From: Candidatus Sumerlaeaceae bacterium
GTDB taxonomy: Bacteria > Sumerlaeota > Sumerlaeia > Sumerlaeales > Sumerlaeaceae
DNA length: 64,000 nt
Assembly (NCBI GenBank): GCA_019695055.1
Contig: JAIBAT010000074.1
Coordinates: forward strand, 1 to 64,000
Direction of reading: 5' to 3'
A model generated the notes under the pieces. The model worked only from the letters and a program-made list of their open reading frames with translations. It ran no database searches and was not told the origin of the DNA. The position numbers were made by a program, and so were the translations under genes. Of this stretch, positions 3,425 through 54,041 are shown piece by piece. The stretch's first letter is position 1. Every line of letters starts with the position of its first letter.

Positions 3425-4216
3425 TCAAGCCGCGGGCGGTGTCTTCTTCGCACCCGGGGTGCCGATCATCGCGTTCATCATTTCCAGCGGGAACGGAAAG
3501 ATGATCGTCGAACTCTTTTCCGCGGAAATCTCGGTGAGCGTCTGCAGGTATCGCATCTGCATCGACATCGGGTGTGCTGCCATCATGTCAGCTGCCATGA
3601 CCAGCTTCTCAGCGGCCTGATACTCGCCCTCGGCCCCGATGACTTTTGCCCGGCGCTCGCGCTCCGCCTCGGCCTGGCGGGCCATGGCGCGCTGCATCTC
3701 CTGCGGCAGGTCAACCTTCTTGATTTCCACAGCGGTCACCTTGATGCCCCAACTGTCGGTCTGCTTGTCGAGGATGGACTGGAGTTCCATGTTCAGCTTC
3801 TCCCGCTCCGATAGCAGGTCGTCCATTTCCTGCTGTCCCAACACGCTCCGCAATGTGGTCTGTGCCATTTGTGACGTGGCAAAGAAGTAATCCTCCACCA
3901 CCACAATAGCCTTCGCGGGCTCCAGCACCTGGAAATAAACGACAGCATTGACGTGAACCGACACGTTGTCGCGCGTGATGATGTCCTGGGGGGGCACGTC
4001 CAGCGTCACGATCCGCAGCGAAACCCGCCTCATTTCATCAATGGGCTTCCACACAATGATCAGTCCCGGCCCCTTCGGCTCCGGCAGCAGTCGACCGAGG
4101 CGGAAAATGACGCCGCGCTCGTACTCCTTCAATATCTTGATGCACGACAACATGTAAAAGACGACGATGATGATGGGTGTGAGCCACCAGTTTTCCATGA
4201 GAAGTCTGAAAATCAT
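3425..4216 (-). CDS. SPFH/band-7 (stomatin/prohibitin-like) membrane protein
   Basis: N-terminal TM helix, then SPFH core and a coiled-coil Ala/Glu/Arg-rich region ([21 protein letters not shown]). Confidence 0.65.
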
Positions 4217-21022: not shown

Positions 21023-21100
21023 TTGCGATTACGGTTGCTTCTACGAGCTGAGAATGCTTCATGGGGAACCTTCCCTAAATCGGAGGAAGAAAGTCGAGTT

Positions 21101-24076
21101 GTGAACCGATTGTTTTTTGTCGGGGCTGCGATTGCTGGAATGACTTTTTTAGGTCTTCCAGTGCCCGCTATCGCATGCTGGGATGGAGTTTCTTTGGACG
21201 GCTCCTGCCCCATTGAGCGTGCCCGCCTCGCACTTGCCGGCAAGTCCAGGTCCGAAAAAATTACAGGCCTATCCACCGCCGTGATGGCTCGCGCCGGCCT
21301 GAAATTTGAGGGCCGCTCGATTTCCGCCATCCCTAACGGCGCAATCCTCACCGAAGTCCGTTCCCTCAAGACGGACAAAACCGGCGAACCCACCGACCTC
21401 GCAATCTACCTCGACCTCGGCGACGATTTCGTCTACAGCCCGCAGCTGACTCCATACAGGCTTTCCCGAATCGGCGGTGAATTTGTCCACGCCTTCACCG
21501 AGGAAGGCATCAGCGGTTATTTCCTTTACATATACGACCCCCTCACGGGTGAGTTCCTGGAGCCCGACCAGCTTTTGCCCCCGGAAGAGCCGCCCAAATA
21601 CGTCCCGGAAACCGACCAGGCCACCGTGGACATGGCCAAGGCCGCCGGAAAAACCATTAACCCGGATGTCAGGGTTGTTCCCGTGATCAATCCCGGCCAA
21701 CCCCAGGGCTCACTTTCCGGCCGCACCGTGTTTATCAATCAATCCCACGGCTGGTTTGACGACGTGGACTTTGGCCGATGGCGCGTCCAGAGGGGAAACA
21801 CTTGCTCCGGCATGGAGGACCTCAGCAGCGCCGAGTTCATCAACGAGTACGTCATGCCGATGCTCCGCAACACCGGCGCCAAGGTCATGACCGTCCGCGA
21901 GCCGGACACCCAGACAGCCATGCTTATTGTGGACAACAGCGACACCGGCGCCGGTCGTGCCGACGGACGCTACTTCGAAACAGGAACCTGGTCCAACAGC
22001 AGCATCGAGGGCTTCAAGCAAAAGACCACCGCCTCCTGGACCGGCACCTCCATCAACCCCTTCAGCCAGGGCACCGGCCAGAACCGCCTTTCTCCCGCGC
22101 TGACCGCCGGCACACCTACTGGAACTGCCAATTGGGTCGCAAACATCCCAGCCGACGGCTATTATAACGTCTACGCCAGTTGGTCCCCCTTCAGCGGACG
22201 CGCCAACGACGCCCAGTATCTCGTCTACCACAGCGGTGGCGTCAGCGAGGTCCGCATGAATCAGAAGATAGATGGCTACACCTGGGTGTTGCTTGGAAAT
22301 TGGTACTTCGAGGCCAGCGCCCCCGAGAGCGAACGCAAGGTCGTCCTGACCAACAAGAGCAGCGACGGCACTGGGGTGAACGTCTCCGCCGACGCAATAC
22401 GGTGGGGCGGCGGCCTCGGCGATATGGCGCGCCAGACCCACGGCGTTAGCGGCCGGCCGCGATGGGAGGAGGAGGCCGTCAATTACCTCCAATTCACCGG
22501 CTTCGGACGCAGCGGCGACCTCTACACCGGCACCGACGACGAATCCGGAGGCTGGGCCGACCGCCCCCAGTATGCGCGGTGGGAACACTCGGGCAAGGAT
22601 GGGGGCGTCGAGGACGCCGTTTACGTGGCCTGGCACACCAACGCCTTCAACGGAACATCGGGCAATTGCGACGGCACCGCCCAGGGTCTCTCATCCTTCC
22701 GCCACAGCACAGCCACCACCGACTCCACCACTTTGCAAACCATCATGCATGACAAGCTTTACAATCACATCGATACCCTTTGGTTCACGGCTTCCACGTG
22801 GCAGGTTCGCAGCAAGAACGTGACCAATTTTGGCGAAAACAATCAGTCCAGCCTTGGCAGCAACCTCCCGGGATTCCTCCTTGAGGGCCTTTTTCACGAC
22901 AACACCGACGACACCAATGCCTATCAGGACCCCCGCTTTCGCAAACTGGCCGCCCGTGCCTTTGCGCACGGCCTGATAGACTACTTTAACCAGCGCGACA
23001 GCACCACCCGGCCCTACCCGCCCGAGCCACCCCTCAACTTCCGGGTGGAAGCTCTCGGCGGCACCAGCGTCCGACTCTCCTGGACCGCCGGCGCCAGCGG
23101 CGGATTCAACGGCGCCGCCGCCACAAGCTACAAGGTATTCCGCAGCCGCAACGGATTCGGGTTTGACGACGGCACGGTGGTCAACGGCCTCACCGTCACC
23201 CTGACCGACGCCCCCACCGACCGCGTCGAGTACTACCGCATCTGCGCGGTCAACACCGGCGGCCAGAGCTTCCCCACCGAAACCCTTTGCGCCATGAACG
23301 GCGCCGGCAGCCAGGTCCTGATCGTGAACGGATTCGACCGCAACCAGACCAGCCTCGCCCCAACCCAGACCATCACAAATCTCGGAACCGTCCGCCGCTT
23401 CGACGAGCGGCTCTTCCAGGGCTACAACTACATCATCGAGCACGCCGAAGCCCTTGAACCCCTCGGCCTGCGCATCAGCAGCTCGTGCAACGAGCGCGTC
23501 GCCGACGGCACCACCGCCCTCGGCGGGTTTGCCGCCGTGTTTTGGATCTGCGGCCAGGAGTCCACCAGCGACGACGCCTTCAACAGCTCTGAAATCTCCC
23601 GCGTGACCACCTATCTCTCCGGCGGAGGCCGCTTCTTCGTCAGCGGCTCGGAAATCGGCTGGGATCTCGGCCGAAGCGGCGTCAGCAGCGCCGCCGACGT
23701 CACCTTTTACAACACCGTCCTGCGGACCGCCTACTCCAGCGACAGCGCCGGCACCTACAATCTCTCCAGCACCGGCATCTTCTCCGGCCTCGGCTCCTTC
23801 AACTTCAGCCCCGCCTCCGGCGCCCGCTATGCCACACCCACCCCCGACGTAATTTCCCCATCCAACGGTTCGACAACCATCCTGAGCTACTCCGGAGGCG
23901 TCGGCGGAACCGCCGCCGTCGCCTACAACGGAACCTCCCGAGTCATCTCCCTCGGATTTCCCTTCGAAACCATCAGCAGCAAACTCACTCGCGAAGCCAT
24001 GATGCAGTCCACCGCCACCTTCTTCGGCCTAACCTCCGGCCCACCGGCCTCCGTCCAGGATTGGAAAAAGTTCTAA
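21101..24076 (+). CDS. secreted N-acetylmuramoyl-L-alanine amidase (Amidase_3)-like protein with an inserted beta-sandwich domain and an FN3 domain
   Basis: Signal peptide; Amidase_3-like blocks (TVFINQSHGW, AVYVAWHTNAFNG...GLSSF, PGFLLEGLFHDNTDDTNAYQDPRF...AHGLIDYF) split by a ~250-aa insert (GYYNVYASWSP...YLVYHSGG...GYTWVLLGNWYF, golvesin-like); FN3 (PPEPPLNFRVEALGGTSVRLSW); start taken at GTG 21101 (ORF-track TTG 21023 lies inside the repeat). Confidence 0.5.
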   Translation: MNRLFFVGAAIAGMTFLGLPVPAIACWDGVSLDGSCPIERARLALAGKSRSEKITGLSTAVMARAGLKFEGRSISAIPNGAILTEVRSLKTDKTGEPTDLAIYLDLGDDFVYSPQLTPYRLSRIGGEFVHAFTEEGISGYFLYIYDPLTGEFLEPDQLLPPEEPPKYVPETDQATVDMAKAAGKTINPDVRVVPVINPGQPQGSLSGRTVFINQSHGWFDDVDFGRWRVQRGNTCSGMEDLSSAEFINEYVMPMLRNTGAKVMTVREPDTQTAMLIVDNSDTGAGRADGRYFETGTWSNSSIEGFKQKTTASWTGTSINPFSQGTGQNRLSPALTAGTPTGTANWVANIPADGYYNVYASWSPFSGRANDAQYLVYHSGGVSEVRMNQKIDGYTWVLLGNWYFEASAPESERKVVLTNKSSDGTGVNVSADAIRWGGGLGDMARQTHGVSGRPRWEEEAVNYLQFTGFGRSGDLYTGTDDESGGWADRPQYARWEHSGKDGGVEDAVYVAWHTNAFNGTSGNCDGTAQGLSSFRHSTATTDSTTLQTIMHDKLYNHIDTLWFTASTWQVRSKNVTNFGENNQSSLGSNLPGFLLEGLFHDNTDDTNAYQDPRFRKLAARAFAHGLIDYFNQRDSTTRPYPPEPPLNFRVEALGGTSVRLSWTAGASGGFNGAAATSYKVFRSRNGFGFDDGTVVNGLTVTLTDAPTDRVEYYRICAVNTGGQSFPTETLCAMNGAGSQVLIVNGFDRNQTSLAPTQTITNLGTVRRFDERLFQGYNYIIEHAEALEPLGLRISSSCNERVADGTTALGGFAAVFWICGQESTSDDAFNSSEISRVTTYLSGGGRFFVSGSEIGWDLGRSGVSSAADVTFYNTVLRTAYSSDSAGTYNLSSTGIFSGLGSFNFSPASGARYATPTPDVISPSNGSTTILSYSGGVGGTAAVAYNGTSRVISLGFPFETISSKLTREAMMQSTATFFGLTSGPPASVQDWKKF

Positions 24077-27506: not shown

Positions 27507-27540
27507 GAGTTCTGAGTTCTGAGTTCTGAGTTCTGAGTTC
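27507..27540. repeat. heptanucleotide microsatellite (GAGTTCT)x4.9
   Basis: Fills the 45-nt spacer between the pta stop (27550) and the GNAT start (27504). Confidence 0.9.
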
Positions 27541-28572: not shown

Positions 28573-28780
28573 GTTCAACGTTCCCCTTCCCCCTTGAATC
28601 GGGTTCCCAAATTTTGTTGCACCGAATACATGGGTGGCGGCGGCGGATGGGGAAGGCAATCGGAAAAGCAAAAACGGTGGGGGGTGGGGAAGAGATTAGG
28701 AATCCGTTGCTATTTCAAAACAGAAGGCTACTTCTTTACACATGATTCGACGAGCAAAAGCCAAGGCACGGGATGGCAGG

Positions 28781-28990
28781 ATGAAACGAGAGTTTAGCGT
28801 CGTTATTGAGAAGGATCCGACCGGCTATTTTGTCGCGTCGGTTCCCGCCCTTCGTGGCTGCCACACCCAGGCCAAATCGCTGGACGTTTTGATGACCCGC
28901 ATCCGCGAGGCCATTGAGCTTTGCCTGGAGGTCGAAGACCCCGTCAAAAGCGAGTTTATTGGGGTCCAGCGGATAGCCATCTCGGCATGA
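28781..28990 (+). CDS. hicB: HicB-family antitoxin
   Basis: MKREFSVVIEKDPTGYFVASVPALRGCHTQAKSLDVLMTRIREAIELCLE (UPF0150/HicB fold); start could be 28742. Confidence 0.6.
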   Translation: MKREFSVVIEKDPTGYFVASVPALRGCHTQAKSLDVLMTRIREAIELCLEVEDPVKSEFIGVQRIAISA

Positions 28991-29208
28991 GCGAGTTCCC
29001 CGCTCTTTCCGGTTCTGCGCTTATCAAGGCACTGCGAAAGTTCGGTTTCGAGGTCGTCCGCGTTCGGGGCAGCCATCATTTTCTGCGCCATTCGGACGGT
29101 AGATGTACCGTTGTTCCTGTTCACCGCGGCGAAACCATTGGCCCCGGTTTGATGGCCCAAATCCTTCGCGACTGCGAGATTGATCGGAAGCAATTGCACC
29201 GGAAGTGA
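28987..29208 (+). CDS. hicA: HicA-family toxin (mRNA interferase)
   Basis: 73 aa; ALRKFGFEVVRVRGSHHFLRH...VVPVHRGETIGPGLMAQILRD; ATGA overlap with the hicB stop. Confidence 0.6.
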   Translation: MSEFPALSGSALIKALRKFGFEVVRVRGSHHFLRHSDGRCTVVPVHRGETIGPGLMAQILRDCEIDRKQLHRK

Positions 29209-29353
29209 CAGGCTTTTGCCGCCGCCAACCAGGTTTTGGGGTCTGAACATCGAATAACGCCCCATACTTCCCCTAAGAATTACAAGAAGTCAGCTTTACC
29301 AGTTTCTCGACGAGCGGCGGGCGTGGTGCCCTGAAGGCCGCGAAGGGGGAGAG

Positions 29354-30349
29354 GTGCACGAGTCGGAAGTCCCTTCGGTTTCAATAGTGGTCCTGACCCT
29401 GAACGGGTCGGATGTCATTCGCGACTGTCTGCGCTCCACTTTCCAGAACGATTACCCGGATTTTGAGGTCATTGTCGTCAACAATGGCTCCACGGATAGC
29501 GTGGAGGAGATCGTGGCGACGGAGTTTCCCGAGGTGCGCATCGTCAGCAATTGCGAGAACCTTGGCTATGCGGGGGGCATCAACGAGGGTATCAAGATCG
29601 CCCGCGGCGACATCATCATTCCGCTGAACGACGATACGATACTGACACCGACGGTGATCAGCGAAATGGTCCAGCCATTCCTTTCGCGGCGAAAAGTTGG
29701 GATCGTCGGGTGCAAGATCCTCTACCCCGACAAAAAGACCATCCAGCACGCCGGCGGCGCGATCCGGCAGAACGGCTCCACGTTTCACTTCGGTTACGGG
29801 GAAGTGGACGATGGGCGCTTCGACAAAATGGACGACGTGGACTATGTCACCGGCTGCATGATCGCCCTGCGGCGCGAGGTGTTCGAGGAACTGGGCCTCT
29901 ACGACGACCGGTATTTTCCCACGTACTACGAGGAGGTGGAGTATTGCGTGCGGGCGCGCAAGGCGGGCTGGCGCGTGATCTATGCGCCGCGGGCCGTGCT
30001 TTACCACCTTGAGTCGAAAACCGAGGTGGCCTTCAGCCCGAAGTTTCTGTTCCGGTTTCACCGGTCGCGGCTGCGGTTTGTGTTGAAGAATTTCAGTTTC
30101 TATGAAATCCTGCGCGCGGTGAAATGGGAGCTGAAGTACATCCTCGGCGGGCAATCTCGCGACGACCGTCGCGCGCTCTTTCGCGCCTACGGCTATGTGC
30201 TCCTGCGCCTGCCGTGGATCCTGTATGATCGCGGGCATCGCTTCCTGCCGATGCCGCCGAGGCCGGAGCGGGCAACCCGGGCCGACGCCAATTCCGTTTT
30301 TGAGCAGGACCAATCCCCCGACCGGAGCCCCACGCATGCTGGAGCATGA
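29354..30349 (+). CDS. glycosyltransferase family 2 (WbbL-like C-terminal extension)
   Basis: SIVVLTLNGSDV...VVNNGSTD...NLGYAGGINEGI...LNDDT DxD GT-A motifs; paralog of 31719-32651. Confidence 0.8.
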   Translation: MHESEVPSVSIVVLTLNGSDVIRDCLRSTFQNDYPDFEVIVVNNGSTDSVEEIVATEFPEVRIVSNCENLGYAGGINEGIKIARGDIIIPLNDDTILTPTVISEMVQPFLSRRKVGIVGCKILYPDKKTIQHAGGAIRQNGSTFHFGYGEVDDGRFDKMDDVDYVTGCMIALRREVFEELGLYDDRYFPTYYEEVEYCVRARKAGWRVIYAPRAVLYHLESKTEVAFSPKFLFRFHRSRLRFVLKNFSFYEILRAVKWELKYILGGQSRDDRRALFRAYGYVLLRLPWILYDRGHRFLPMPPRPERATRADANSVFEQDQSPDRSPTHAGA

Positions 30350-31397
30350 TGTCAAACAGTTCAGTTCCGACAAGATCCTGAAGCACCTGGACCGCGTCAA
30401 TGAGTGGCTCGCGGGCGGGAACCCGTTTCCCATCACCGTGGAAATGGACATGACCAACGTCTGCAGCCACAAGTGCCCCGAGTGCGTGGTGAACTACTTT
30501 CGCGAGGATAACGCCGACCGCCTGCCGCGGGCCCTGGCGGAGCGCATCATCACGGAGCTGGCCGAGGGCGGCGTGCGCGGGCTCATCTTCACGGGCGGGG
30601 GCGACCCGCTGTGCCACCGGGACACGCCGGACATGATGGCGCTGGCGGCGAGCAAGGGGATCGACGTGGCGCTCATTACGAACGGGTCGCTGCTGACGGA
30701 GCCCATCATGGAGGTGGCGCTTCGCCACTGCATGTGGATCCGCGTTTCGCTGGATTGCATCACGCCGGCAACCTTCAAACTTATGCATGGACTGCCCGAA
30801 GAGGATTTTCGGAAGGTTATTGCGAATATCAAAACCCTCGCCGCCATGAAGCGCCACCTCGGCAGCCGCGCCACGGTGGGGGTCGGCTTCCTGACCTGCG
30901 CCGCCACGGAGAACGAGATGGTCGAGGCCGCACGCCAGGCAAAGGATTGGGGCGTGGATTACCTGCAATATCGGCCGCTCCAGATCCACCGCGGTGGGAA
31001 GTTCGAGTACGACTGGTTCGAGGTCGAGGACCTCATCAACCAGGCCGTCCAGTATTCCGGCGACGGCTATGAGGTGCTCTACTCCAAGCACAAGTATGAA
31101 TCCATCAAGCGCCAGGACTACGGCCGCGACTACCCGGAGTGCCTCGGCCACCAGTTTGCCTCCACGATTGCCGCGGACGGCAAGGTCTATATCTGTTGCC
31201 ACACGCGCGGGTATGAGAAGTATTGCCTTGGGAACCTCCACGAGCACAGCTTTCACGAAATCTGGAACGGCGAGGAGCGCCGCAAGGCCATCGGCCGGAT
31301 TGATTTTAAGGATTGCATTCCTCTCTGCCGGGACAACACCTTTAACCAGATTTTGTGGAAAATCAAGCAGCCGCGCGAACACGAGAACTTTCTGTAG
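30336..31397 (+). CDS. radical SAM enzyme with C-terminal SPASM/twitch-like auxiliary-cluster domain
   Basis: CSHKCPEC (CxxxCxxC), GGGDP glycine motif, C-terminal Cys pattern C..x..GKVYICC..x..YC..GNL..IW..x..DCIPLC; start overlaps the upstream GT2 stop by 14 nt. Confidence 0.75.
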   Translation: MLEHDVKQFSSDKILKHLDRVNEWLAGGNPFPITVEMDMTNVCSHKCPECVVNYFREDNADRLPRALAERIITELAEGGVRGLIFTGGGDPLCHRDTPDMMALAASKGIDVALITNGSLLTEPIMEVALRHCMWIRVSLDCITPATFKLMHGLPEEDFRKVIANIKTLAAMKRHLGSRATVGVGFLTCAATENEMVEAARQAKDWGVDYLQYRPLQIHRGGKFEYDWFEVEDLINQAVQYSGDGYEVLYSKHKYESIKRQDYGRDYPECLGHQFASTIAADGKVYICCHTRGYEKYCLGNLHEHSFHEIWNGEERRKAIGRIDFKDCIPLCRDNTFNQILWKIKQPREHENFL

Positions 31398-31435
31398 GGT
31401 GGCGGCTCCAAAAGCTTCCGAAGGAGGAGCAGTCG

Positions 31436-31663
31436 GTGAAAGCGAGTGATAAGATCAAGGGTGCAAGATTCGCCGCGCTGCAAAAAAAGATCAAGGCAGA
31501 CGAGCGCAAGTGCTTCGCCATCTGCTGCCGCGATTCAGAAACGGGAGCATACCACAGGTGCGCTTTCGAGACATTTCCGACACCGGAACTGGCAAGGGCG
31601 GAAATCAAACGGCGCGGCCTTAAGGGTGAAATCGCCGTATGGGGCGAGTGGGGTCCCGAGTAG
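31436..31663 (+). CDS. small Lys-rich, 4-Cys hypothetical protein (candidate rSAM substrate or partner)
   Basis: 75 codons; AAGGAGG Shine-Dalgarno 8 nt before GTG 31436; G/C-rich third positions; CFAICC...YHRC; 38 nt after the rSAM stop. Confidence 0.3.
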   Translation: MKASDKIKGARFAALQKKIKADERKCFAICCRDSETGAYHRCAFETFPTPELARAEIKRRGLKGEIAVWGEWGPE

Positions 31664-31718
31664 GTGGCGCTTCGCGGCGATCCCTCCGAAACCGCTTGAA
31701 TCGCCGGGGTAACGGCCA

Positions 31719-32651
31719 ATGATGGCCTCCGGTATGGAACAACCAGCGCACCCCCTCGCCTCGGTCGTCGTCATTACGCTGAATGGCTCCGACGTCATCC
31801 GGAACTGCCTCGATTCGTTGTTGCCCAGCGATTATCCGAATTTTGAGGTGCTGCTGGTTAATAACGGGTCCACAGACGGCGTCGAGCAGATCGTAAGGAC
31901 GGAGTATCCGTCCGTGCGCATTGTCAGCCTGGGGAAGAACCTGGGTTATGCGGGCGGTAACAACGAGGGCATCAAGGCGTCGCGGGGCGAAATCGTTGTG
32001 CTGCTAAATGATGACACGGTCTTGCAGCCGACAGCGCTGGGCGAGGTGGTGCGGCCCTTTGTTGAGAATCCCCAAGTGGGCATCGTGGGGTGCAAAATCC
32101 TTTACCCCGACGGAAAGACCATCCAGCACGCGGGCGCGCGCATCCTGAGCAATGGCGCCAGCGAGCACATCGGCAACCACGAGGAGGACCGCGGCCAGTA
32201 CGACGAGCCACGCGACGTGGACTATGTCATCGGCTGCATGATGGGCATCCGTCGCGCGGTTTTCCATGATATTGGTTTGTTCGACGACCGCTACTTTCCG
32301 ATCTATTTTGACGAACAGGAATTTGCTGTCCGGGCACGCCGCAAGGGATGGCGCGTCGTCTATAATCCGAAGGCTGTGCTCTGCCACATCGAGGCCAAGA
32401 CCCAGGCCATGAACAGCGAGCGTTACCTGTTCCGCTACCATCGGTCGCGATTGCGCTACGTCCTGAAGAATTTTCCCGCCCGTGCGCTCTGGGGTTTTCT
32501 CCGCGGTGAGTGGCACAACATCGCGCATACGCCGGACGCGGTCAACCGGCGGGTGCATTTGAAGGCCTGGGGTTACACGCTGCCGCGGTTGCCGATGATA
32601 CTTATTGATCGGAAGTGGCGGTTTTTGAAGTTGCCTGCGTCGCACACGTAA
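31719..32651 (+). CDS. glycosyltransferase family 2 (paralog of 29354-30349)
   Basis: SVVVITLNGSDV...LVNNGSTD...NLGYAGGNNEGI...LNDDT; same C-terminal extension. Confidence 0.8.
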   Translation: MMASGMEQPAHPLASVVVITLNGSDVIRNCLDSLLPSDYPNFEVLLVNNGSTDGVEQIVRTEYPSVRIVSLGKNLGYAGGNNEGIKASRGEIVVLLNDDTVLQPTALGEVVRPFVENPQVGIVGCKILYPDGKTIQHAGARILSNGASEHIGNHEEDRGQYDEPRDVDYVIGCMMGIRRAVFHDIGLFDDRYFPIYFDEQEFAVRARRKGWRVVYNPKAVLCHIEAKTQAMNSERYLFRYHRSRLRYVLKNFPARALWGFLRGEWHNIAHTPDAVNRRVHLKAWGYTLPRLPMILIDRKWRFLKLPASHT

Positions 32652-32713
32652 TTTAATTCACAAAACTCCATTGGGACTTTACTGCTTGAAGATCGACTCA
32701 ATCGTGATGTTGA

Positions 32714-32929
32714 TTGGCGGAAGGTGAAGGAGGGCTGCGCATGGCAACAGTAATGAAGAAAGAGGACGCACACCGGATTGTCGACAATTTGCCAGCGGAT
32801 GCGACCTGGGATGATTTGATGCATCAGATTTATGTCCGGGAAGCTGTTGAGCGGGGGTTGTCCGACAGCCGCGAAGACCGCGCCAGTGAAGTTGCGGAGG
32901 TGCGGGCAAAGTACGGACTTGAGAAGTGA
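32714..32929 (+). CDS. putative ParD-like/addiction-module antitoxin component
   Basis: 71 aa; ...LPADATWDDLMHQIYVREAVERGL; stop overlaps the ParE-like start. Confidence 0.5.
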   Translation: MAEGEGGLRMATVMKKEDAHRIVDNLPADATWDDLMHQIYVREAVERGLSDSREDRASEVAEVRAKYGLEK

Positions 32930-33222
32930 GAGTACGGTGGACTGAAACAGCCCAGGCCCACCTTGCCAGCATTCATTCCTACGTTGCGCTGGATTCTCCT
33001 GCTTATGCAATTCGACTAGTTGACTGCCTGACACGCAGGTCACAGCAAATCGCAAGTTATCCGCACTCGGGACGCCGGGTCCCCGAATACGACATGGAGA
33101 TGATCCGCGAAGTCATCGAAGGGTCGTACAGAATCATTTACTTAATTGGGGCGGATCGAATTGATGTCCTTGCCGTAATTCACGGTGCACAGGAATTGGA
33201 TTCGGAGTTGCCGAACAATTAA
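32926..33222 (+). CDS. ParE/RelE-family toxin
   Basis: 98 aa; WTETAQAHLASIHSYVA...YPHSGRRVPEY...REVIEGSYRIIYLIGADRIDVLAVIHGAQEL. Confidence 0.65.
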   Translation: MRVRWTETAQAHLASIHSYVALDSPAYAIRLVDCLTRRSQQIASYPHSGRRVPEYDMEMIREVIEGSYRIIYLIGADRIDVLAVIHGAQELDSELPNN

Positions 33223-33266: not shown

Positions 33267-34016
33267 CTATTCGAAGATTAAAGACCCAATATTTGATGGG
33301 TCGCCGAGATCCAGATAACTCCCCGACTCGAAGAAGTTTGCGCGCACCTTCAGCCCGGCTGTGATTGCTTCGTTGAAGAGCAGGCCGATGGACAGGCTTT
33401 TCATCTCGGGCCGGGCCGCCAGCGTTTCGTGCACAAACTTGCTGAACCGCGGCGACCACGCCGCAATGCCCCAGATGCCGCGCAGATCCGTCCTTGCGGG
33501 CTTGTCGATGACCTCGATCACCTGCCCGGCCGCGTCGTGGCGCACGGGTCCAAATCGCTCGGGGGTGTCCGTCGGGAAAACCCCCAACTGAACGTCGGAA
33601 TCCAACTGGCTGCAGCTTTCGCACACCTGCTTGAACGCGTCGCCCGGATTAATGATCGTGTCGGGCAGGGCCAGGCATACATGGTTATCCTTTGTCCACT
33701 CGTAGCAGCGATCCACGGCGTCTGCCAGCCCCTCGGCGCTCTCCTGGTGGATGTAGCACAGGTCCATGCCGTGGCGCGCGCCGTTCCCAAGGCAGCGCAT
33801 GATCTCGACCTTGCGGTCGGAAATCACAACAATCGCCTTCTTCACGGTTGCGGCTTTCAACGCCTCGATGGAAAACTCGATGGCCAGTCGTGGATGCGCG
33901 CCCTTGTCCTCCCCCTTCACCCGGAACGCGATGGGCATCAGTTCCTTCGGATAGGAAAAAGGCGCGAGGCGCGAGCCCATCCCCGCCGCGGGCAACAGAC
34001 CTATAAATTCCGGCAT
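33267..34016 (-). CDS. sugar-phosphate nucleotidyltransferase (NTP_transferase fold)
   Basis: N-terminal GLLPAAGMGSRLAPFSYPKELMPI (G-x-G-x-R-L motif). Confidence 0.6.
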   Translation of the reverse strand: MPEFIGLLPAAGMGSRLAPFSYPKELMPIAFRVKGEDKGAHPRLAIEFSIEALKAATVKKAIVVISDRKVEIMRCLGNGARHGMDLCYIHQESAEGLADAVDRCYEWTKDNHVCLALPDTIINPGDAFKQVCESCSQLDSDVQLGVFPTDTPERFGPVRHDAAGQVIEVIDKPARTDLRGIWGIAAWSPRFSKFVHETLAARPEMKSLSIGLLFNEAITAGLKVRANFFESGSYLDLGDPSNIGSLIFE

Positions 34017-47466: not shown

Positions 47467-50304
47467 TTACCCGTTGCTCTCCAGGGTCACTTCGAGCTGC
47501 TCCATCATGTAGGCCTCGACCACATCGCCAACTTTGATGTCGTTGTAGTTCGTAATGCTGAGACCGCACTCCTGGCTTTCGGTCACCTTCTTGGCGTCGT
47601 CCTTGAAGCGCTTGAGGCTCGACAGCGTTCCGTCGTAAATCACGGCGTTGTCTCGCAGCAGGCGGATCTTACTGTCGCGGTTGATTTCGCCGTCCGTTAC
47701 GTAACACCCGGCAATGGTGCCGAGTTTCGAGATTTTGAAGAGCTGGCGGATCTCCACGTGGCCGGTGACCTTCTCCTGGAACTTCGGTTCCAGCATGCCG
47801 ACCATGGCCTTGCGCAGGTCCTCGATGAGGTCGTAGATGATGCGGTAGAGTTTGATGTCCACGCCCGTGCGCGCCGCCATTTCGGTGGCAGATTGCTCCG
47901 GACGCACGTTGAAGCCAATGATGATCGCGTCGGACGCGTCGGCCAGGTTCACATCGCTGTCGTTGATACCGCCGACGCCGCTGTGCAGTATGCGGATACG
48001 CACTTCATTGGAGTTAAGCTTTTCGAGGGATCCCGCAACAGCTTCGATGGAGCCCTGAACGTCGCCCTTGAGGATGATGTTCAGGTCCTTCATTTTACCC
48101 TCGGCGATAAAGTCGTGCAGGCCCTCGAGAGTGACGTGCTGCTTTTGCGGTGTGAGGCCAGCGGCACGGCGACGGAACTCGCGCTTCTCCGCAATTTCGC
48201 GCGCGAGCTGCTCGTTCTCGACGACGACGAACTGTTCGCCGGCACCGGGGCTGCCGCTGAGACCGATAATCTCGGCGGGGAAGCTGGGTCCGGCCTCCTC
48301 GATGGGGCGGCCGTGGTCGTCGTTCATGGCGCGAACGCGACCGCTGATGTCGCCGACGACAAACTCGTCGCCGACGCGCAGCGTACCGCGCTGGACAAGG
48401 ATGGTGGCAACCGCGCCGCGAGCCGGGTCGACGTGGGATTCCACAACGATACCGACAGCGCGGTGGCTGGGGTCGGCCTTGAGTTCAAGAACCTCGGCCT
48501 GCAGGCCCACCATTTCGAGCAACTGCTCGATACCGGTGGCCTTCTTGGCGCTGATCTCCACAAAAATGGTTTCGCCGCCGAACTCCTCGCTGACGAGGCC
48601 GTGTTGCAAGGCTTCCTGCTTCACACGGGCCGGGTCGGCGCCGGGGAGGTCAACCTTGTTGACCGCGACCACGATTGGCACTTTCGCCGCCTGGGCGTGG
48701 TGGATGGCCTCAATGGTTTGTGGCATAAAGCCGTCGTTGGCCGCCACGACAAGGATGACAATGTCCGTGACGCTGGCACCACGGGCGCGCATGGCCGTAA
48801 AGGCCTCGTGGCCCGGGGTGTCAAGGAATACGATGTTACCGCGTGACGTCGGCACGTGGTACGCGCCGATGTGCTGCGTAATGCCGCCGAACTCGCCCTC
48901 GACGACGTTCGACTTGCGAATACGGTCGAGCAGAGTCGTCTTTCCATGGTCGACATGGCCCATGATGGTGACCACGGGCGGACGACGAATCTGGGATTCG
49001 GCGGTGCTGACGGGCATAAACTTCTCGATGTCGCCCTCGTCGGTCTCCTTGATGATTTCGAGATCAACATTGAACTCGCCAGCCAGCAATTCCATGTGCT
49101 CGGGCGAGATAACCTGGTTCACAGTGACCATTTCACCAAGCATGAAAAGCTTTTTAATGACCTCGGTGGACGGCACCTGGATTTTTTCGGCAAACAGGCC
49201 GAGAGTGACCTCGCCGGTGATGGAGACACTGCGTCTGGGCAGCTCAAGGGTCCCGCCCTCCGGCGTCGGCTCATAGCCCACGGACGAACCACCACCACGG
49301 CGACCATCGCGACGACCACCTCGGCCAAAGGCACCACCCTGGTGGGCTCCGGGCCCGGGTTTGCCCGTACGCGGGCGTGACGTTTGCCGCATATCCTCAT
49401 CGAGTTCGAAAATGCGGGTTGGCGTGGGCTTGCGCCGGTCCTTCGAGGCTCCGCCCTTCTTTTTGTCGGGCTTGCGAGCGCTGGGCTTGTCGGCGCGCAT
49501 CACGCCGATGGTGGGCAGATTGGCCTCGGTCAACTGGACTGGGCGCCCTCCGGATTCACCGCGGCGCGGCGGACCACCGGCACCCTGGGGCCGCGGCGGA
49601 CGCTGGGCCCCCGGACCGCCCGGACGTTGAAAACCGCCCTGGCCTGGCGGGCGCTGGAACCCACCCTGGCCACCACCGGGACGCGGACCTGAACCCTGTG
49701 GACGTGGGCCGCCACCGGGTGCTCCACCCTGACGGGGCGGGCCAAAGGACGGGCGCGGACCTGTGCCTGGTGGGCGCGGGCCGGCTGGACGCTGCTGGGG
49801 TTGGCCCGTTGGGGCATCAGAACTTGTTTGGGGGGCGCGGGGCGGCGCACCCGGAATGGGCCGGAATCCAAGCGAACGTAAGCGCTCGGCTTCTTCGGCG
49901 GCGTGCTTGCGGGCCTTTTCTTCCTCTTCGCGGCGCTTGCGGTCTTCCTCGGCGCGCTGGCGGCGCTCTTCCTCGGCTTTGCGGCGGGCCTCCTCTTCGG
50001 CCTTACGGCGCTCTTCCTCTTCGGCCTTGCGCTTTTCTTCGAGCTGGCGGCGGCGCTCCTCCTCCTTGCGGCGGCGCTCCTCCTCCTTCTTGAGGCGCTC
50101 TTCCTCCTTCTTGCGCTCTTCCTCAAGCTCCTTGGCCTTCAGGTCGGCCTTATACTTGTCGATATGGGGCATCAGCTTGCGAACATCCTTGTCCTCGATG
50201 TTCGCGCTGGCGCTGGCCTTGATGGCAACGCGGTGCTTCTTGGCGATGGCTAATACGTCCTTGCTTTCAAGGCCGGTGGCCTTCGCTAGCTCAAAAACCC
50301 TCAT
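47467..50304 (-). CDS. infB: translation initiation factor IF-2
   Basis: 945 aa; charged Glu/Arg/Lys-rich N-terminal region; G-domain [12 protein letters not shown]...DTPGH...NKVD. Confidence 0.95.
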
Positions 50305-53395: not shown

Positions 53396-53812
53396 TTACA
53401 TCTTGCCTTTCGGGTCCATTTTTTCAGCGTCCTTTGACATCTTGTCGCCAGACATCTTGTCGCCAGACATCTTGTCGCCAGACATCTTGTCGCCAGACAT
53501 CTTGTCGCCAGACATCTTGTCAGCCGGGATGGGGGCGCCTCCCATGCGGGCTCCGCCCATGCGTCCGCCGCGAGCTTCCATCTGCTGCTTCATTTTGAAG
53601 AGCGCGGCCTTCATCTGCGAGGCGTCGTTGCTGGCGATGGCCTCATCGATCATCTTCATGGTTTCCTCGCGGCCCATGAAGGGGGTCGATGTCGTGGGGG
53701 TGTCCTTCATGGCGGCCTGGGGCTGTTCCTCTTTCGAGTCATCCGCGAGACAGGACGTGGTCGTCAGGCAGGTCGCGGCAATGACGGCCGCGGTCAGGCA
53801 TTTGGCAAACAT
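53396..53812 (-). CDS. Met-rich periplasmic repeat protein (MrpX-like)
   Basis: GGAGGA Shine-Dalgarno 7 nt upstream; signal/lipobox-like N-terminus; (DKMSG)x6 plus RMGGARMGG; about 17% Met. Confidence 0.5.
   Translation of the reverse strand: MFAKCLTAAVIAATCLTTTSCLADDSKEEQPQAAMKDTPTTSTPFMGREETMKMIDEAIASNDASQMKAALFKMKQQMEARGGRMGGARMGGAPIPADKMSGDKMSGDKMSGDKMSGDKMSGDKMSKDAEKMDPKGKM
53436..53525. repeat. 15-bp tandem repeat x6 (gacatcttgtcgcca)
   Basis: Perfect copies 1-5, variant copy 6; encode DKMSG repeats on the minus strand. Confidence 0.95.
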
Positions 53813-54041
53813 CAGTAAATCCTCCGTGGTGTTCCAGTGGTGTGGAACGGTTTGGTGTGTCGGTGTGGCCATGGTGTCACGGACCGCGGGGCCTCCGGCG
53901 CATGCTCCGGCGCCCCTGAGTATCCGTCATTCATGCGCCGGGATTTGGTCGGGATACAAGGCGAATCCCTTACAGGAGAAATTCGCTCGACCAGTCCCGG
54001 AGGCGGCAAACCCTTGCAAAATGTGAGGCTGCCGGTGAATA

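What the first reader, a model, noticed from the sequence alone, without database searches (positions are those of the whole stretch)
28742..33222. Toxin-antitoxin-bracketed cassette: GT2 / radical-SAM-SPASM / 75-codon Cys ORF / GT2
All eight ORFs are co-directional on the plus strand, in the order hicB-hicA, GT2, rSAM, small ORF, GT2, parD-like/parE. The two GT2 genes are clear paralogs (by eye ~55-60% identical) with WbbL-like C-terminal extensions. The rSAM start overlaps the first GT2 stop by 14 nt, which suggests translational coupling. The rSAM carries CSHKCPEC plus a 7-Cys C-terminal region whose spacing resembles SPASM/twitch auxiliary-cluster domains. Thirty-eight nt after the rSAM stop lies a 75-codon ORF with a near-perfect Shine-Dalgarno (AAGGAGG-8nt-GTG), a Lys-rich N-terminal half and CFAICC...YHRC. 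SPASM rSAMs are the maturases of many RiPPs, and glycocin S-glycosyltransferases are GT2 enzymes. The locus could therefore encode an undescribed glycosylated and/or cross-linked peptide. Alternatively the rSAM is a BtrN/anSME-like sugar- or protein-modifying enzyme inside a small glycan-modification module. The flanking type II toxin-antitoxin pairs suggest an accessory, mobilisable or stabilised cassette.
Basis: partly seen in the sequence, partly recalled or inferred. Interest (0 to 1): 0.72.

Follow-up and report, generated by a model that had tools for sequence, protein, structure and literature searches.

The report
Sugar-modifying radical-SAM / glycosyltransferase mini-module
The genes are really there, but the conserved unit is a glycosyltransferase paired with an uncharacterised radical-SAM enzyme that sits in sugar and cell-surface glycan loci in many bacteria, while the small cysteine ORF is a one-genome orphan, so this is most likely an ordinary glycan-modification module and not a new modified peptide.

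Summary
All eight plus-strand ORFs exist as described in a Candidatus Sumerlaeaceae MAG: hicB/hicA, GT2a, rSAM, a 75-codon ORF, GT2b, and an antitoxin with parE.

The RiPP reading meets its own first refutation criterion. The small ORF has no credible relative in 5.8 billion proteins, 1.8 billion HMMER-scanned representatives, 241 million metagenome records, or any of the related loci tested. In 24 of 25 related loci the gap after the rSAM is 80 nt or less, so no ORF fits there. The rSAM has no RRE/PqqD domain.

What is conserved is a GT2→rSAM pair, found in four independent relatives (68–76% rSAM identity) with different flanks. The wider rSAM family has more than 470 members in Omnitrophota, Planctomycetota, Nitrospirota and Elusimicrobia. 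It lies among GT2, GT9, GT4, carbamoyltransferase and O-antigen-ligase genes. Full-length homologs at 28–31% identity in cultured bacteria lie in nonulosonic-acid or nucleotide-sugar loci. The best structural matches are DesII and BlsE, both enzymes that act on nucleoside-linked sugars, but only narrowly ahead of RiPP maturases.

The toxin–antitoxin pairs and the small ORF have atypical codon composition and look like separate insertions.

Verdict: an uncharacterised but ordinary-looking sugar-modifying rSAM/GT2 module. Low to moderate interest.

The parts
28742..28990 (+). HicB-like antitoxin (82 aa). A neighbouring selfish module, not part of the conserved GT2-rSAM unit.
   Evidence: PF15919 scores 25.8 bits against a cutoff of 27. 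PHROG 497 'HicB-like' gives E 6e-9. GC3 is 0.65.
28987..29208 (+). HicA toxin (73 aa)
   Evidence: PF07927 scores 66.8 bits. It has a 4-nt ATGA overlap with the hicB stop. GC3 is 0.61.
29354..30349 (+). GT2a: family-2 glycosyltransferase (GT-A fold with a C-terminal helical domain). It is the ortholog of the GT2 that is coupled to the rSAM in relatives.
   Evidence: PF00535 scores 103 bits. It is 56-66% identical to the GT2 directly upstream of the rSAM in L001, L004, L037 and L038. The AF2 model has pLDDT 91, and its best full-length fold match is GlfT2 at TMq 0.69-0.71. The N92-D93-D94 motif is conserved.
30336..31397 (+). Radical SAM enzyme with a SPASM/twitch-type C-terminal domain (353 aa). 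It belongs to an uncharacterised family of more than 470 proteins.
31421..31427 (+). Shine-Dalgarno-like AAGGAGG, 8 nt before the GTG of the small ORF
   Evidence: Read from the sequence. The motif occurs 16 times in the window against 7.3 expected.
31436..31663 (+). Orphan 75-codon ORF (Lys-rich N-terminus; Cys26, Cys30, Cys31, His40, Cys41). Probably a real gene, but specific to this lineage and not part of the conserved module.
   Evidence: The only database matches are itself and its copy in L007, a second read set (SRR1027651), apart from two tandem-repeat artefacts. Its codon score of 0.088 is the best of the six frames and lies between real genes and spurious ORFs. GC3 is 0.64. ORF plus Shine-Dalgarno site arises by chance at about 1.4%.
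31719..32651 (+). GT2b: an old paralog from the same GT2 subfamily. The start may instead be ATG 31734, as in the 305-aa NCBI model.
   Evidence: It is 57% identical to GT2a and 55-60% identical to the rSAM-coupled GT2s of relatives. P0144 is the 305-aa NCBI version. PF00535 scores 109 bits.
32741..32929 (+). Putative antitoxin partner of ParE (62 aa from ATG 32741; the longest ORF starts at 32714). No family assignment.
   Evidence: AAGGAGG lies at 32727-32733, 7 nt before the ATG, and there is a 4-nt GTGA overlap with parE. No Pfam, NCBIfam or PADLOC family matches.
32926..33222 (+). ParE/RelE-family toxin (98 aa)
   Evidence: PF05016 scores 60.2 bits. GC3 is 0.54.
33267..34016 (-). RmlA-like sugar-1-phosphate nucleotidyltransferase, convergent neighbour. 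It is a possible donor-sugar supplier, but its membership of the module is not shown.
   Evidence: PF00483 scores 64 bits. TIGR01208 scores 73 bits, below its cutoff. No specific homolog occurs in the related loci.

Best explanation
**What it is.** The functional core is a two-gene module, GT2a followed by a translationally coupled radical-SAM enzyme, plus a paralogous GT2b.

**How it most likely works (inferred).**
- The rSAM uses its CX3CX2C [4Fe-4S] cluster and SAM to abstract a hydrogen atom from a sugar.
- That sugar is either a nucleotide-activated sugar or a sugar already attached to a lipid or glycan acceptor.
- The rSAM probably uses one twitch-type auxiliary cluster, ligated by the four superfamily-invariant Cys 269, 287, 327 and 331.
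- The reaction is probably an oxidation, elimination, epimerisation or decarboxylation of the kind DesII, BlsE and BtrN perform.
- The GT2 enzymes have a GT-A fold, an N-D-D metal/nucleotide motif and a GlfT2-like C-terminal helical domain. They transfer the sugar onto a membrane-associated glycoconjugate.

**What is not part of the system.** The hicBA and parE pairs are independent selfish modules that landed on either side. The 75-codon ORF is a lineage-specific orphan gene that is not needed by the conserved system.

**Shown:** domain content, the conserved GT2-rSAM pairing, the glycan and sugar context of the family, and the orphan status of the small ORF.

**Inferred:** that the substrate is a sugar, the reaction type, the number of auxiliary clusters, and the acceptor.
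For: 1. **Conserved GT2→rSAM pairing.** All four independent closest relatives (rSAM 68-76% identical) have a GT2 that is 56-66% identical to GT2a directly upstream, with a spacing from -29 to +95 nt. Their flanking genes are otherwise unrelated.
2. **Glycan context in wider relatives.** In 26 loci, GT2 lies within 5 kb in 22, and L004 makes 23. GT9 is present in 13 loci, GT4 in 11 and additional rSAMs in at least 10. Carbamoyltransferase, Wzy_C/O-antigen ligase, GDSL and GH5 genes are also present.
3. **Sugar context in cultured bacteria.** Full-length homologs at 28-31% identity keep the same Cys pattern and C-terminal tail. They lie beside nonulosonic-acid genes (Solidesulfovibrio), epimerase/carbamoyltransferase genes (Azospirillum), and UDP-Galp mutase, DegT aminotransferase and NTP-transferase genes (Streptomyces).
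5. **High cross-phylum conservation.** The rSAMs are 55-60% identical across phyla, with a mean column identity of 66%. This fits a conserved small-molecule substrate.
6. **No peptide-binding domain.** There is no RRE/PqqD domain, and only about 35 residues precede the cluster motif.
7. **Composition.** GT2a, rSAM and GT2b have GC3 of 0.77-0.84, close to or above the window's gene mean of 0.73. The TA genes and the small ORF have 0.54-0.65.
Against: - No member of this rSAM family has been characterised. No curated NCBIfam model reaches its cutoff, and no paper describing the family turned up in the library searched.
- The window locus itself is not inside a glycan island. Its flanks are Pta and GNAT on one side and NTP-transferase and YmdB on the other.
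- GT2a-like enzymes also occur alone, without the rSAM, so the coupling is not obligatory from the GT2 side.
- Genomic context cannot identify the substrate or the reaction.
Confidence: 0.68

Rival explanations
1. RiPP cassette. The 75-aa Cys-containing protein is a precursor peptide that the rSAM cross-links and the GT2s glycosylate, giving an undescribed glycosylated or thioether peptide.
For: - The small ORF directly follows the rSAM, has a near-perfect Shine-Dalgarno site, and has four Cys.
- ORF plus Shine-Dalgarno site is unlikely by chance, at about 1.4%.
- The rSAM has a SPASM-type domain.
- Fold matches to SkfB and SuiB are nearly as strong as the match to DesII.
Against: - No homolog of the small ORF was found in 5.8 billion proteins, 1.8 billion representatives or 241 million metagenome records, nor in any related locus.
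- No analogous small Cys ORF lies next to the pair in close relatives.
- The gap after the rSAM is 80 nt or less in 24 of 25 loci.
- There is no RRE/PqqD domain, protease or exporter.
- The rSAM is 55-76% conserved across phyla without the ORF.
- The GT2s are not SunS-like.
- The small ORF's GC3 differs from that of the enzymes.
Confidence: 0.05
2. The rSAM modifies a protein or peptide encoded elsewhere in the genome. This would be an anSME-like maturase of an enzyme, possibly of the partner glycosyltransferase or a surface protein, with the GT2 then glycosylating that protein.
For: - The SPASM/twitch domain and fold resemble anSME, SkfB, SuiB and PqqE.
- The top Foldseek hits for GT2a include the polypeptide GalNAc-transferases.
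- GT2a-like genes occur alone in non-glycan contexts.
Against: - No conserved candidate substrate gene lies next to the family.
- The contexts are dominated by nucleotide-sugar and glycan genes.
- The anSME equivalog models were not among the best hits.
- The ppGalNAc-T similarity is the generic GT-A fold at 15-17% identity.
Confidence: 0.12
3. The module makes a glycosylated small molecule or lipid (for example a cofactor-like or glycolipid head-group product, in the way mycofactocin MftF or the arsenosugar GT/rSAM pairs do) and not a cell-surface polysaccharide.
For: - The best NCBIfam hits of both GT2s are MftF, at 87.6 and 82.9 bits. The arsenosugar GT TIGR04283 also hits weakly.
- The module is only 2-3 genes and sits outside any glycan island in the window and in L037 and L038.
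Against: - All these hits are far below their cutoffs: MftF needs 280 bits and MftC scored 49 against 265.
- No MftA, B, D or E genes or arsenic genes are present.
- Most relatives sit with GT9, GT4 and O-antigen-ligase genes.
Confidence: 0.15

Closest known systems
DesII (TDP-4-amino-4,6-dideoxy-D-glucose deaminase) and BlsE (cytosylglucuronate decarboxylase): radical SAM enzymes acting on nucleoside-linked sugars
   Same: - They share the CX3CX2C radical SAM core.
- The family's genomic context is sugar biosynthesis.
   Different: - Identity is only 18-20%.
- The NCBIfam equivalog models score 30-32 bits against cutoffs of 400-450.
- This family has six conserved C-terminal Cys and a conserved C-terminal tail (consensus N-T-F-N-Q-I-L-W ... 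H-x-N-F-L) that the compared proteins were not seen to share.
- The substrate and reaction are unknown.
BtrN / anSME-type twitch and SPASM dehydrogenases
   Same: - The C-terminal Fe-S domain matches PF13186 (46.9 bits).
- Four invariant Cys are arranged as two around a beta-hairpin and two downstream, as in a twitch auxiliary cluster.
   Different: - BtrN's PDB profile E-value is 0.007, over the core only.
- There is no canonical 7-Cys CX2CX5CX3C motif.
RiPP rSAM/SPASM maturases (SkfB, SuiB, CteB, PqqE, MftC)
   Different: - There is no RRE domain.
- There is no conserved precursor gene.
- All equivalog models score far below their cutoffs.
- The family sits in glycan loci.
Radical-SAM-rich glycan/LOS loci, e.g. 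the Brachyspira hyodysenteriae ~36-kb plasmid block (PMC4267127)
   Same: Several radical SAM genes are interleaved with glycosyltransferases, epimerases and rfb genes, and are proposed to act in LOS or rhamnose glycosylation. This is the same architecture seen around distant members of the family.
   Different: Homology between those Brachyspira rSAMs and this family was not tested. The plasmid search at E<=1e-10 did not return that plasmid.
GlfT2-type GT2 glycosyltransferases acting on lipid-linked glycans
   Same: GlfT2 is the best full-length fold match of GT2a, at TMq 0.69-0.71 and rmsd about 4.5 A, and the match includes the C-terminal helical domain.
   Different: Identity is 17-18%. 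GT2a is half the size and lacks GlfT2's N-terminal domain. The donor and acceptor are unknown.

Membership tests
Radical SAM superfamily | CX3CX2C cluster motif and a PF04055 match above the gathering score | tested here: met
   C43-x3-C47-x2-C50 is invariant in 27 of 27 sequences. PF04055 scores 55.6 bits against a cutoff of 29.5.
SPASM/twitch subfamily | C-terminal auxiliary Fe-S domain; the full SPASM form has the 7-Cys motif including CX2CX5CX3C | tested here: inconclusive
   PF13186 scores 46.9 bits against a cutoff of 21.5. However, only six Cys are conserved, there is no CX2CX5CX3C, and only four Cys are invariant out to 28% homologs. The number of clusters is not testable here.
RiPP rSAM maturase systems (sactipeptide/ranthipeptide/streptide type) | Precursor peptide gene conserved next to the maturase | tested here: not met
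   The small ORF has no homolog anywhere. No small Cys ORF lies next to the pair in relatives.
RiPP rSAM maturase systems (sactipeptide/ranthipeptide/streptide type) | RRE/PqqD-like peptide-recognition domain, fused or encoded nearby | tested here: not met
   No PqqD hit appears in any of the eight proteins. Only about 35 residues (two short helices) precede the cluster motif.
RiPP rSAM maturase systems (sactipeptide/ranthipeptide/streptide type) | Match to a curated maturase equivalog (MftC, PqqE, PapB, StsB, WgkB, ScmE/F) | tested here: not met
   All score 28-49 bits against cutoffs of 265-650.
Glycocin systems (SunS/ThuS-type peptide S-glycosyltransferase) | GT2 reaching the SunS family model TIGR04195, or a specific fold match to SunS/ThuS | tested here: not met
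   The scores are 24.5 and 20.0 bits against a cutoff of 350, and cover the N-terminal 60 residues only. PDB profile E-values are about 1e-8 for the N-terminus only. Neither protein is in the Foldseek top 50.
Mycofactocin system | MftC and MftF equivalogs together with MftA/B/D/E genes | tested here: not met
   MftC scores 49.4 against 265. MftF scores 87.6 and 82.9 against 280. No other Mft genes are in the cassette.
Nucleotide-sugar radical SAM enzymes (DesII, BlsE) | Match to the equivalog models TIGR04426 / TIGR04466 | tested here: not met
   The scores are 30.2 against 450 and 31.8 against 400. The protein resembles these enzymes in fold and context but is not a member of either family.
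Nucleotide-sugar radical SAM enzymes (DesII, BlsE) | Activity on an NDP- or nucleoside-linked sugar | not testable with these tools
   Only fold rank and genomic context are available.
Glycosyltransferase family 2 (GT-A) | PF00535 above cutoff, a DxD-type motif and a GT-A fold | tested here: met
   The scores are 103 and 109 bits against a cutoff of 23.3. N92-D93-D94 is conserved. The AF2 model has pLDDT 91 and GT-A matches.
HicAB type II toxin-antitoxin | HicA toxin domain plus an adjacent HicB-like antitoxin in one operon | tested here: met
   HicA PF07927 scores 66.8 bits. HicB PF15919 scores 25.8 bits, just under 27, but PHROG 497 gives E 6e-9. The genes overlap by 4 nt. Toxicity was not tested.
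ParDE / RelBE type II toxin-antitoxin | ParE/RelE toxin with a cognate ParD/RelB antitoxin | tested here: inconclusive
   ParE PF05016 scores 60.2 bits. The upstream 62-71-aa ORF matches no antitoxin family; the best is RelB-like at E 0.025. Only its position, its Shine-Dalgarno site and the 4-nt overlap support it.
Anti-phage defence (prokaryotic viperin, pVip) | Full-length match to pVip models | tested here: not met
   The PADLOC pVip hits cover only the radical SAM core, residues 33-150, at 50-54 bits. NCBIfam viperin scores 49 against a cutoff of 180.

The most novel reading that the evidence does not exclude
A Sumerlaeaceae lineage has captured an ancestral glycan-type GT2/rSAM pair and combined it with a newly arisen 75-aa Cys protein. 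This would be the birth of a ribosomal peptide pathway: the orphan protein is cross-linked or glycosylated by enzymes whose relatives act on sugars. The evidence does not exclude this. The ORF has a strong, well-placed Shine-Dalgarno site and sits exactly between the rSAM and a second GT2 copy that relatives lack at that position.
Probability: 0.04. Interest if true: 0.8.

Novelty: new member of a known kind. Interest (0 to 1): 0.3.

Why it matters
If the main reading is right, the locus points to a large, uncharacterised radical SAM family. It has more than 470 sequences, mostly from uncultured Omnitrophota, Planctomycetota, Nitrospirota and Sumerlaeota, and it is wired into cell-surface glycan biosynthesis.

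The minimal two-gene GT2-rSAM form seen here and in four relatives is the simplest version to express for finding the sugar chemistry involved. That is useful for radical-enzyme and glycobiology specialists, but it is not a surprise.

The more exciting RiPP reading is very unlikely.

Tried and rejected
- **Homologs of the small ORF.** I ran a word-indexed search of 5.8 billion proteins, full phmmer on 1.8 billion representatives, tblastn on all fetched loci, and a back-translated pattern scan of metagenome contigs. I also ran Pfam, PHROGs, NCBIfam and PADLOC at loose thresholds. Only the ORF itself was found, including its copy in a second read set (L007). The two phmmer hits, P0122 and P0123, are tandem-repeat translations whose scores are inflated by repeats, and I rejected them.
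- **Spacer as a decayed gene or duplication scar.** Six-frame tblastn and blastn of the 321-nt spacer found nothing.
- **RNA element, promoter or terminator in the cassette.** None was found.
- **Cassette mobility signals.** No direct repeats bracket the cassette. The direct repeats found mostly reflect GT2a/GT2b paralogy. A weak inverted repeat flanks hicBA. The window has no tRNA genes.
- **Defence-system reading (viperin-like rSAM next to TA genes).** The PADLOC hits cover the core only. Rejected.
- **Mycofactocin, arsenosugar and hopanoid (HpnI/J/K) analogies.** All models score far below their cutoffs. Rejected as memberships.
- **The adjacent NTP-transferase as a conserved partner.** No homolog occurs in the related loci, so it remains a positional observation only.
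- **Literature.** Seven searches found no paper describing this family in the held library.
- **Exact look-up of the window's own rSAM.** This returned nothing.
- **First training set for the codon score.** It was contaminated by long antisense ORFs, so I rebuilt it using a GC3-GC2 criterion.

Full report
**Observation**

The window comes from a Candidatus Sumerlaeaceae metagenome-assembled genome. The rSAM, GT2a, GT2b and the small ORF all have 100% matches to NCBI records of that MAG.

- The HicB-like ORF (28742-28990) scores just under the Pfam cutoff but matches a HicB PHROG at E 6e-9.
- HicA (28987-29208) is clear and overlaps hicB by ATGA.
- GT2a (29354-30349) and GT2b (31719-32651) are family-2 glycosyltransferases that are 57% identical.
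- The rSAM (30336-31397) has C43-x3-C47-x2-C50, matches PF04055 and PF13186 (SPASM), and overlaps the GT2a stop by 14 nt.
- The 75-codon ORF starts at GTG 31436, 8 nt after AAGGAGG.
- ParE (32926-33222) is clear. Its upstream partner matches no antitoxin family, but it has its own AAGGAGG 7 nt before ATG 32741 and a 4-nt overlap with parE.

Small corrections are needed. The C-terminal domain has six conserved Cys, not seven. It has no canonical CX2CX5CX3C motif.

**Is the small ORF real, and is it conserved?**

A plus-strand ORF of at least 75 codons arises in 12% of random spacers of this length and composition. With a correctly placed Shine-Dalgarno core, the figure is 1.4%.

Its codon-usage score is 0.088, the best of the six frames. 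That lies between chunks of real genes (0.277 ± 0.128) and spurious ORFs (-0.213 ± 0.209), and resembles hicA and parE. It is therefore probably a genuine gene with atypical composition.

It is also an orphan.
- A search of 5.8 billion proteins finds only itself.
- Full phmmer on 1.8 billion representatives adds only two tandem-repeat artefacts.
- A pattern scan of 241 million metagenome records finds nothing.
- tblastn on the related loci fetched by then found it only in L007, the same locus from a second read set. Six-frame searches of the whole 321-nt spacer against all loci fetched found nothing.

**What is conserved**

The rSAM belongs to a family with 477 detectable members that are 45-76% identical. 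They come from Omnitrophota, Planctomycetota, Nitrospirota, Thermodesulfobacteriota and Elusimicrobia MAGs. Conservation is high, with a mean column identity of 66% across 27 sequences.

The four independent closest relatives are L001 (76%), L004 (69%), L037 (69%) and L038 (68%).
- Each has a GT2 that is 56-66% identical to GT2a immediately upstream of the rSAM.
- Their surrounding genes are otherwise unrelated: Mur ligase and polysaccharide deacetylase; DUF2161; an MmeI restriction enzyme with GH43 and sulfatase; and an ABC-2 permease.
- In all four, the gene after the rSAM is convergent or overlapping, so no small ORF fits.

GT2b is an old paralog of the same subfamily, 55-60% identical to all of these GT2s. 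GT2a-like enzymes also occur alone.

Among 26 loci with flanks:
- a GT2 lies within 5 kb in 22 (23 counting L004), GT9 in 13, GT4 in 11, and further rSAMs (B12-dependent or SPASM) in at least 10;
- carbamoyltransferase, O-antigen-ligase-type, GDSL and GH5 genes are also present;
- the gap after the rSAM is 80 nt or less in 24 of 25.

In 15 of these loci, a 350-aa protein of unknown family sits directly upstream. It has a weak profile match to the GT9 N-terminal domain.

Full-length homologs at 28-31% identity occur on plasmids of cultured bacteria. They keep C269, C287, C327, C331 and the C-terminal H-x-N-F tail.
- In Solidesulfovibrio carbinolicus they lie next to nonulosonic-acid biosynthesis genes.
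- In Azospirillum oryzae they lie next to epimerase, carbamoyltransferase and kinase genes.
- In Streptomyces vietnamensis they lie next to UDP-galactopyranose mutase, a DegT aminotransferase, an NTP-transferase and a MurG-like transferase.

**Structure and family comparisons**

No curated NCBIfam model reaches its cutoff. The best, the tungsten-cofactor maturase model, scores 88 bits against 380 and covers only the core.

A family profile against PDB sequences gives MoaA, DesII, the tetraether lipid synthase, BlsE and viperins ahead of peptide maturases.

The N-terminus is too short for an RRE, and no PqqD domain is present.

GT2a models well (pLDDT 91).
- It matches GlfT2 over its full length, including the C-terminal helical domain, and matches the generic GT-A core of the ppGalNAc-transferases.
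- Its profile matches chondroitin and heparosan synthases best.
- SunS and ThuS match only through the N-terminal Rossmann part.

**Toxin-antitoxin bracketing**

The two TA pairs are real but look unrelated to the module.
- Relatives of the module have none.
- Their GC3 is 0.54-0.65, against 0.77-0.84 for GT2a, rSAM and GT2b and a mean of about 0.73 for the window's genes.
- No direct repeats bracket the cassette. Only a weak inverted repeat flanks hicBA.
- No Rfam family, promoter-like site or terminator-like site explains the spacer.
- The window around the cassette is not a glycan island. It carries Pta, GNAT, an RmlA-like nucleotidyltransferase, YmdB and signalling genes.
- PADLOC shows only core-level viperin similarity.

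**Interpretation**

The best-supported explanation (confidence about 0.68) is a compact glycan or glycoconjugate modification module. In it, the rSAM performs a radical transformation on a sugar and the GT2s transfer that sugar. The TA pairs and the orphan ORF are later, independent additions.

The small ORF is absent from syntenic loci. The rSAM belongs to a clade that sits in polysaccharide-type loci, although that clade is not a characterised one.

The substrate, the reaction and the number of auxiliary clusters remain inferred.

**Novelty and score**

This is a new, uncharacterised member of a known kind: radical SAM enzymes in sugar pathways. No paper in the held library describes the family. 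A loose published parallel is the radical-SAM-rich LOS/rhamnose block on the Brachyspira hyodysenteriae plasmid (PMC4267127).

Interest is 0.3. The module is a reasonable enzymology target but not a surprising system.

The most novel reading still open is that the orphan protein is a newly recruited substrate. I put that at about 4%.

Noticed in passing
L005:4936-5991, L010:4998-6050, L012:2934-3980 and 12 further loci: A protein of about 350 aa with no Pfam or PDB match sits directly upstream (gap 36 nt or less) of the rSAM family member in 15 Omnitrophota/Planctomycetota loci. It has an internal tandem duplication and a C-terminal hydrophobic segment. A profile comparison links its first repeat to the N-terminal domain of GT9 heptosyltransferase-family enzymes (probability 78.6%, E 1.7e-5).
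   Followed up: partly
L005, L008, L009, L015, L016, L023, L026, L040 (around the rSAM match): Distant members of the family lie in loci that are unusually rich in radical SAM genes (B12-binding rSAMs, further SPASM rSAMs, a 983-aa double-rSAM fusion). These are interleaved with GT9, GT4, GT2, carbamoyltransferase and O-antigen-ligase-type genes.
   Followed up: partly
L046 (Solidesulfovibrio carbinolicus pDCAR1), L047 (Azospirillum oryzae plasmid), L048 (Streptomyces vietnamensis pSVL1): Full-length homologs at 28-31% identity in cultured bacteria sit beside nonulosonic-acid or nucleotide-sugar genes and further rSAMs. These organisms are culturable entry points for studying the superfamily.
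   Followed up: partly
window 28622-28644 and 29218-29240: A 23-nt imperfect inverted repeat (83% complementary, GC-rich) brackets the hicB-hicA pair. It could mark an insertion or be chance.
   Followed up: no
window 27507-27540: A perfect heptamer tandem repeat, (GAGTTCT) x 4.9, lies in the short spacer between the GNAT and phosphotransacetylase genes on the minus strand.
   Followed up: no
window 53436-53521: A perfect 15-nt tandem repeat (5.7 copies, GACATCTTGTCGCCA) lies inside the minus-strand ORF 53396-53872. It would encode a repeated pentapeptide.
   Followed up: no
window 49919-50124: Degenerate 21/24-nt tandem repeats lie inside the 945-aa minus-strand ORF 47467-50304. They account for three of the window's sixteen AAGGAGG matches.
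   Followed up: no
window 21023-24076: A 1017-aa ORF whose only Pfam match is a Golvesin C-terminal domain (72 bits). The rest is unassigned.
   Followed up: no
L042:5001-5912, L044:452-1363, L045:5001-5954: GT2a-like glycosyltransferases (54-61% identical) occur as solitary genes in non-glycan neighbourhoods with no rSAM nearby. The GT2 subfamily can therefore work without the rSAM.
   Followed up: partly
L037:3240-4328: The GT2 upstream of the rSAM in this long-read contig changes frame near position 4091: its homology to GT2a continues in another frame. This is either an assembly indel or a pseudogene.
   Followed up: no
window 31446-31712: A second 88-codon ORF overlaps the small ORF in another frame, with a poor codon score (-0.46). 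It is almost certainly not coding, but it shows how easily ORFs arise in this spacer.
   Followed up: partly
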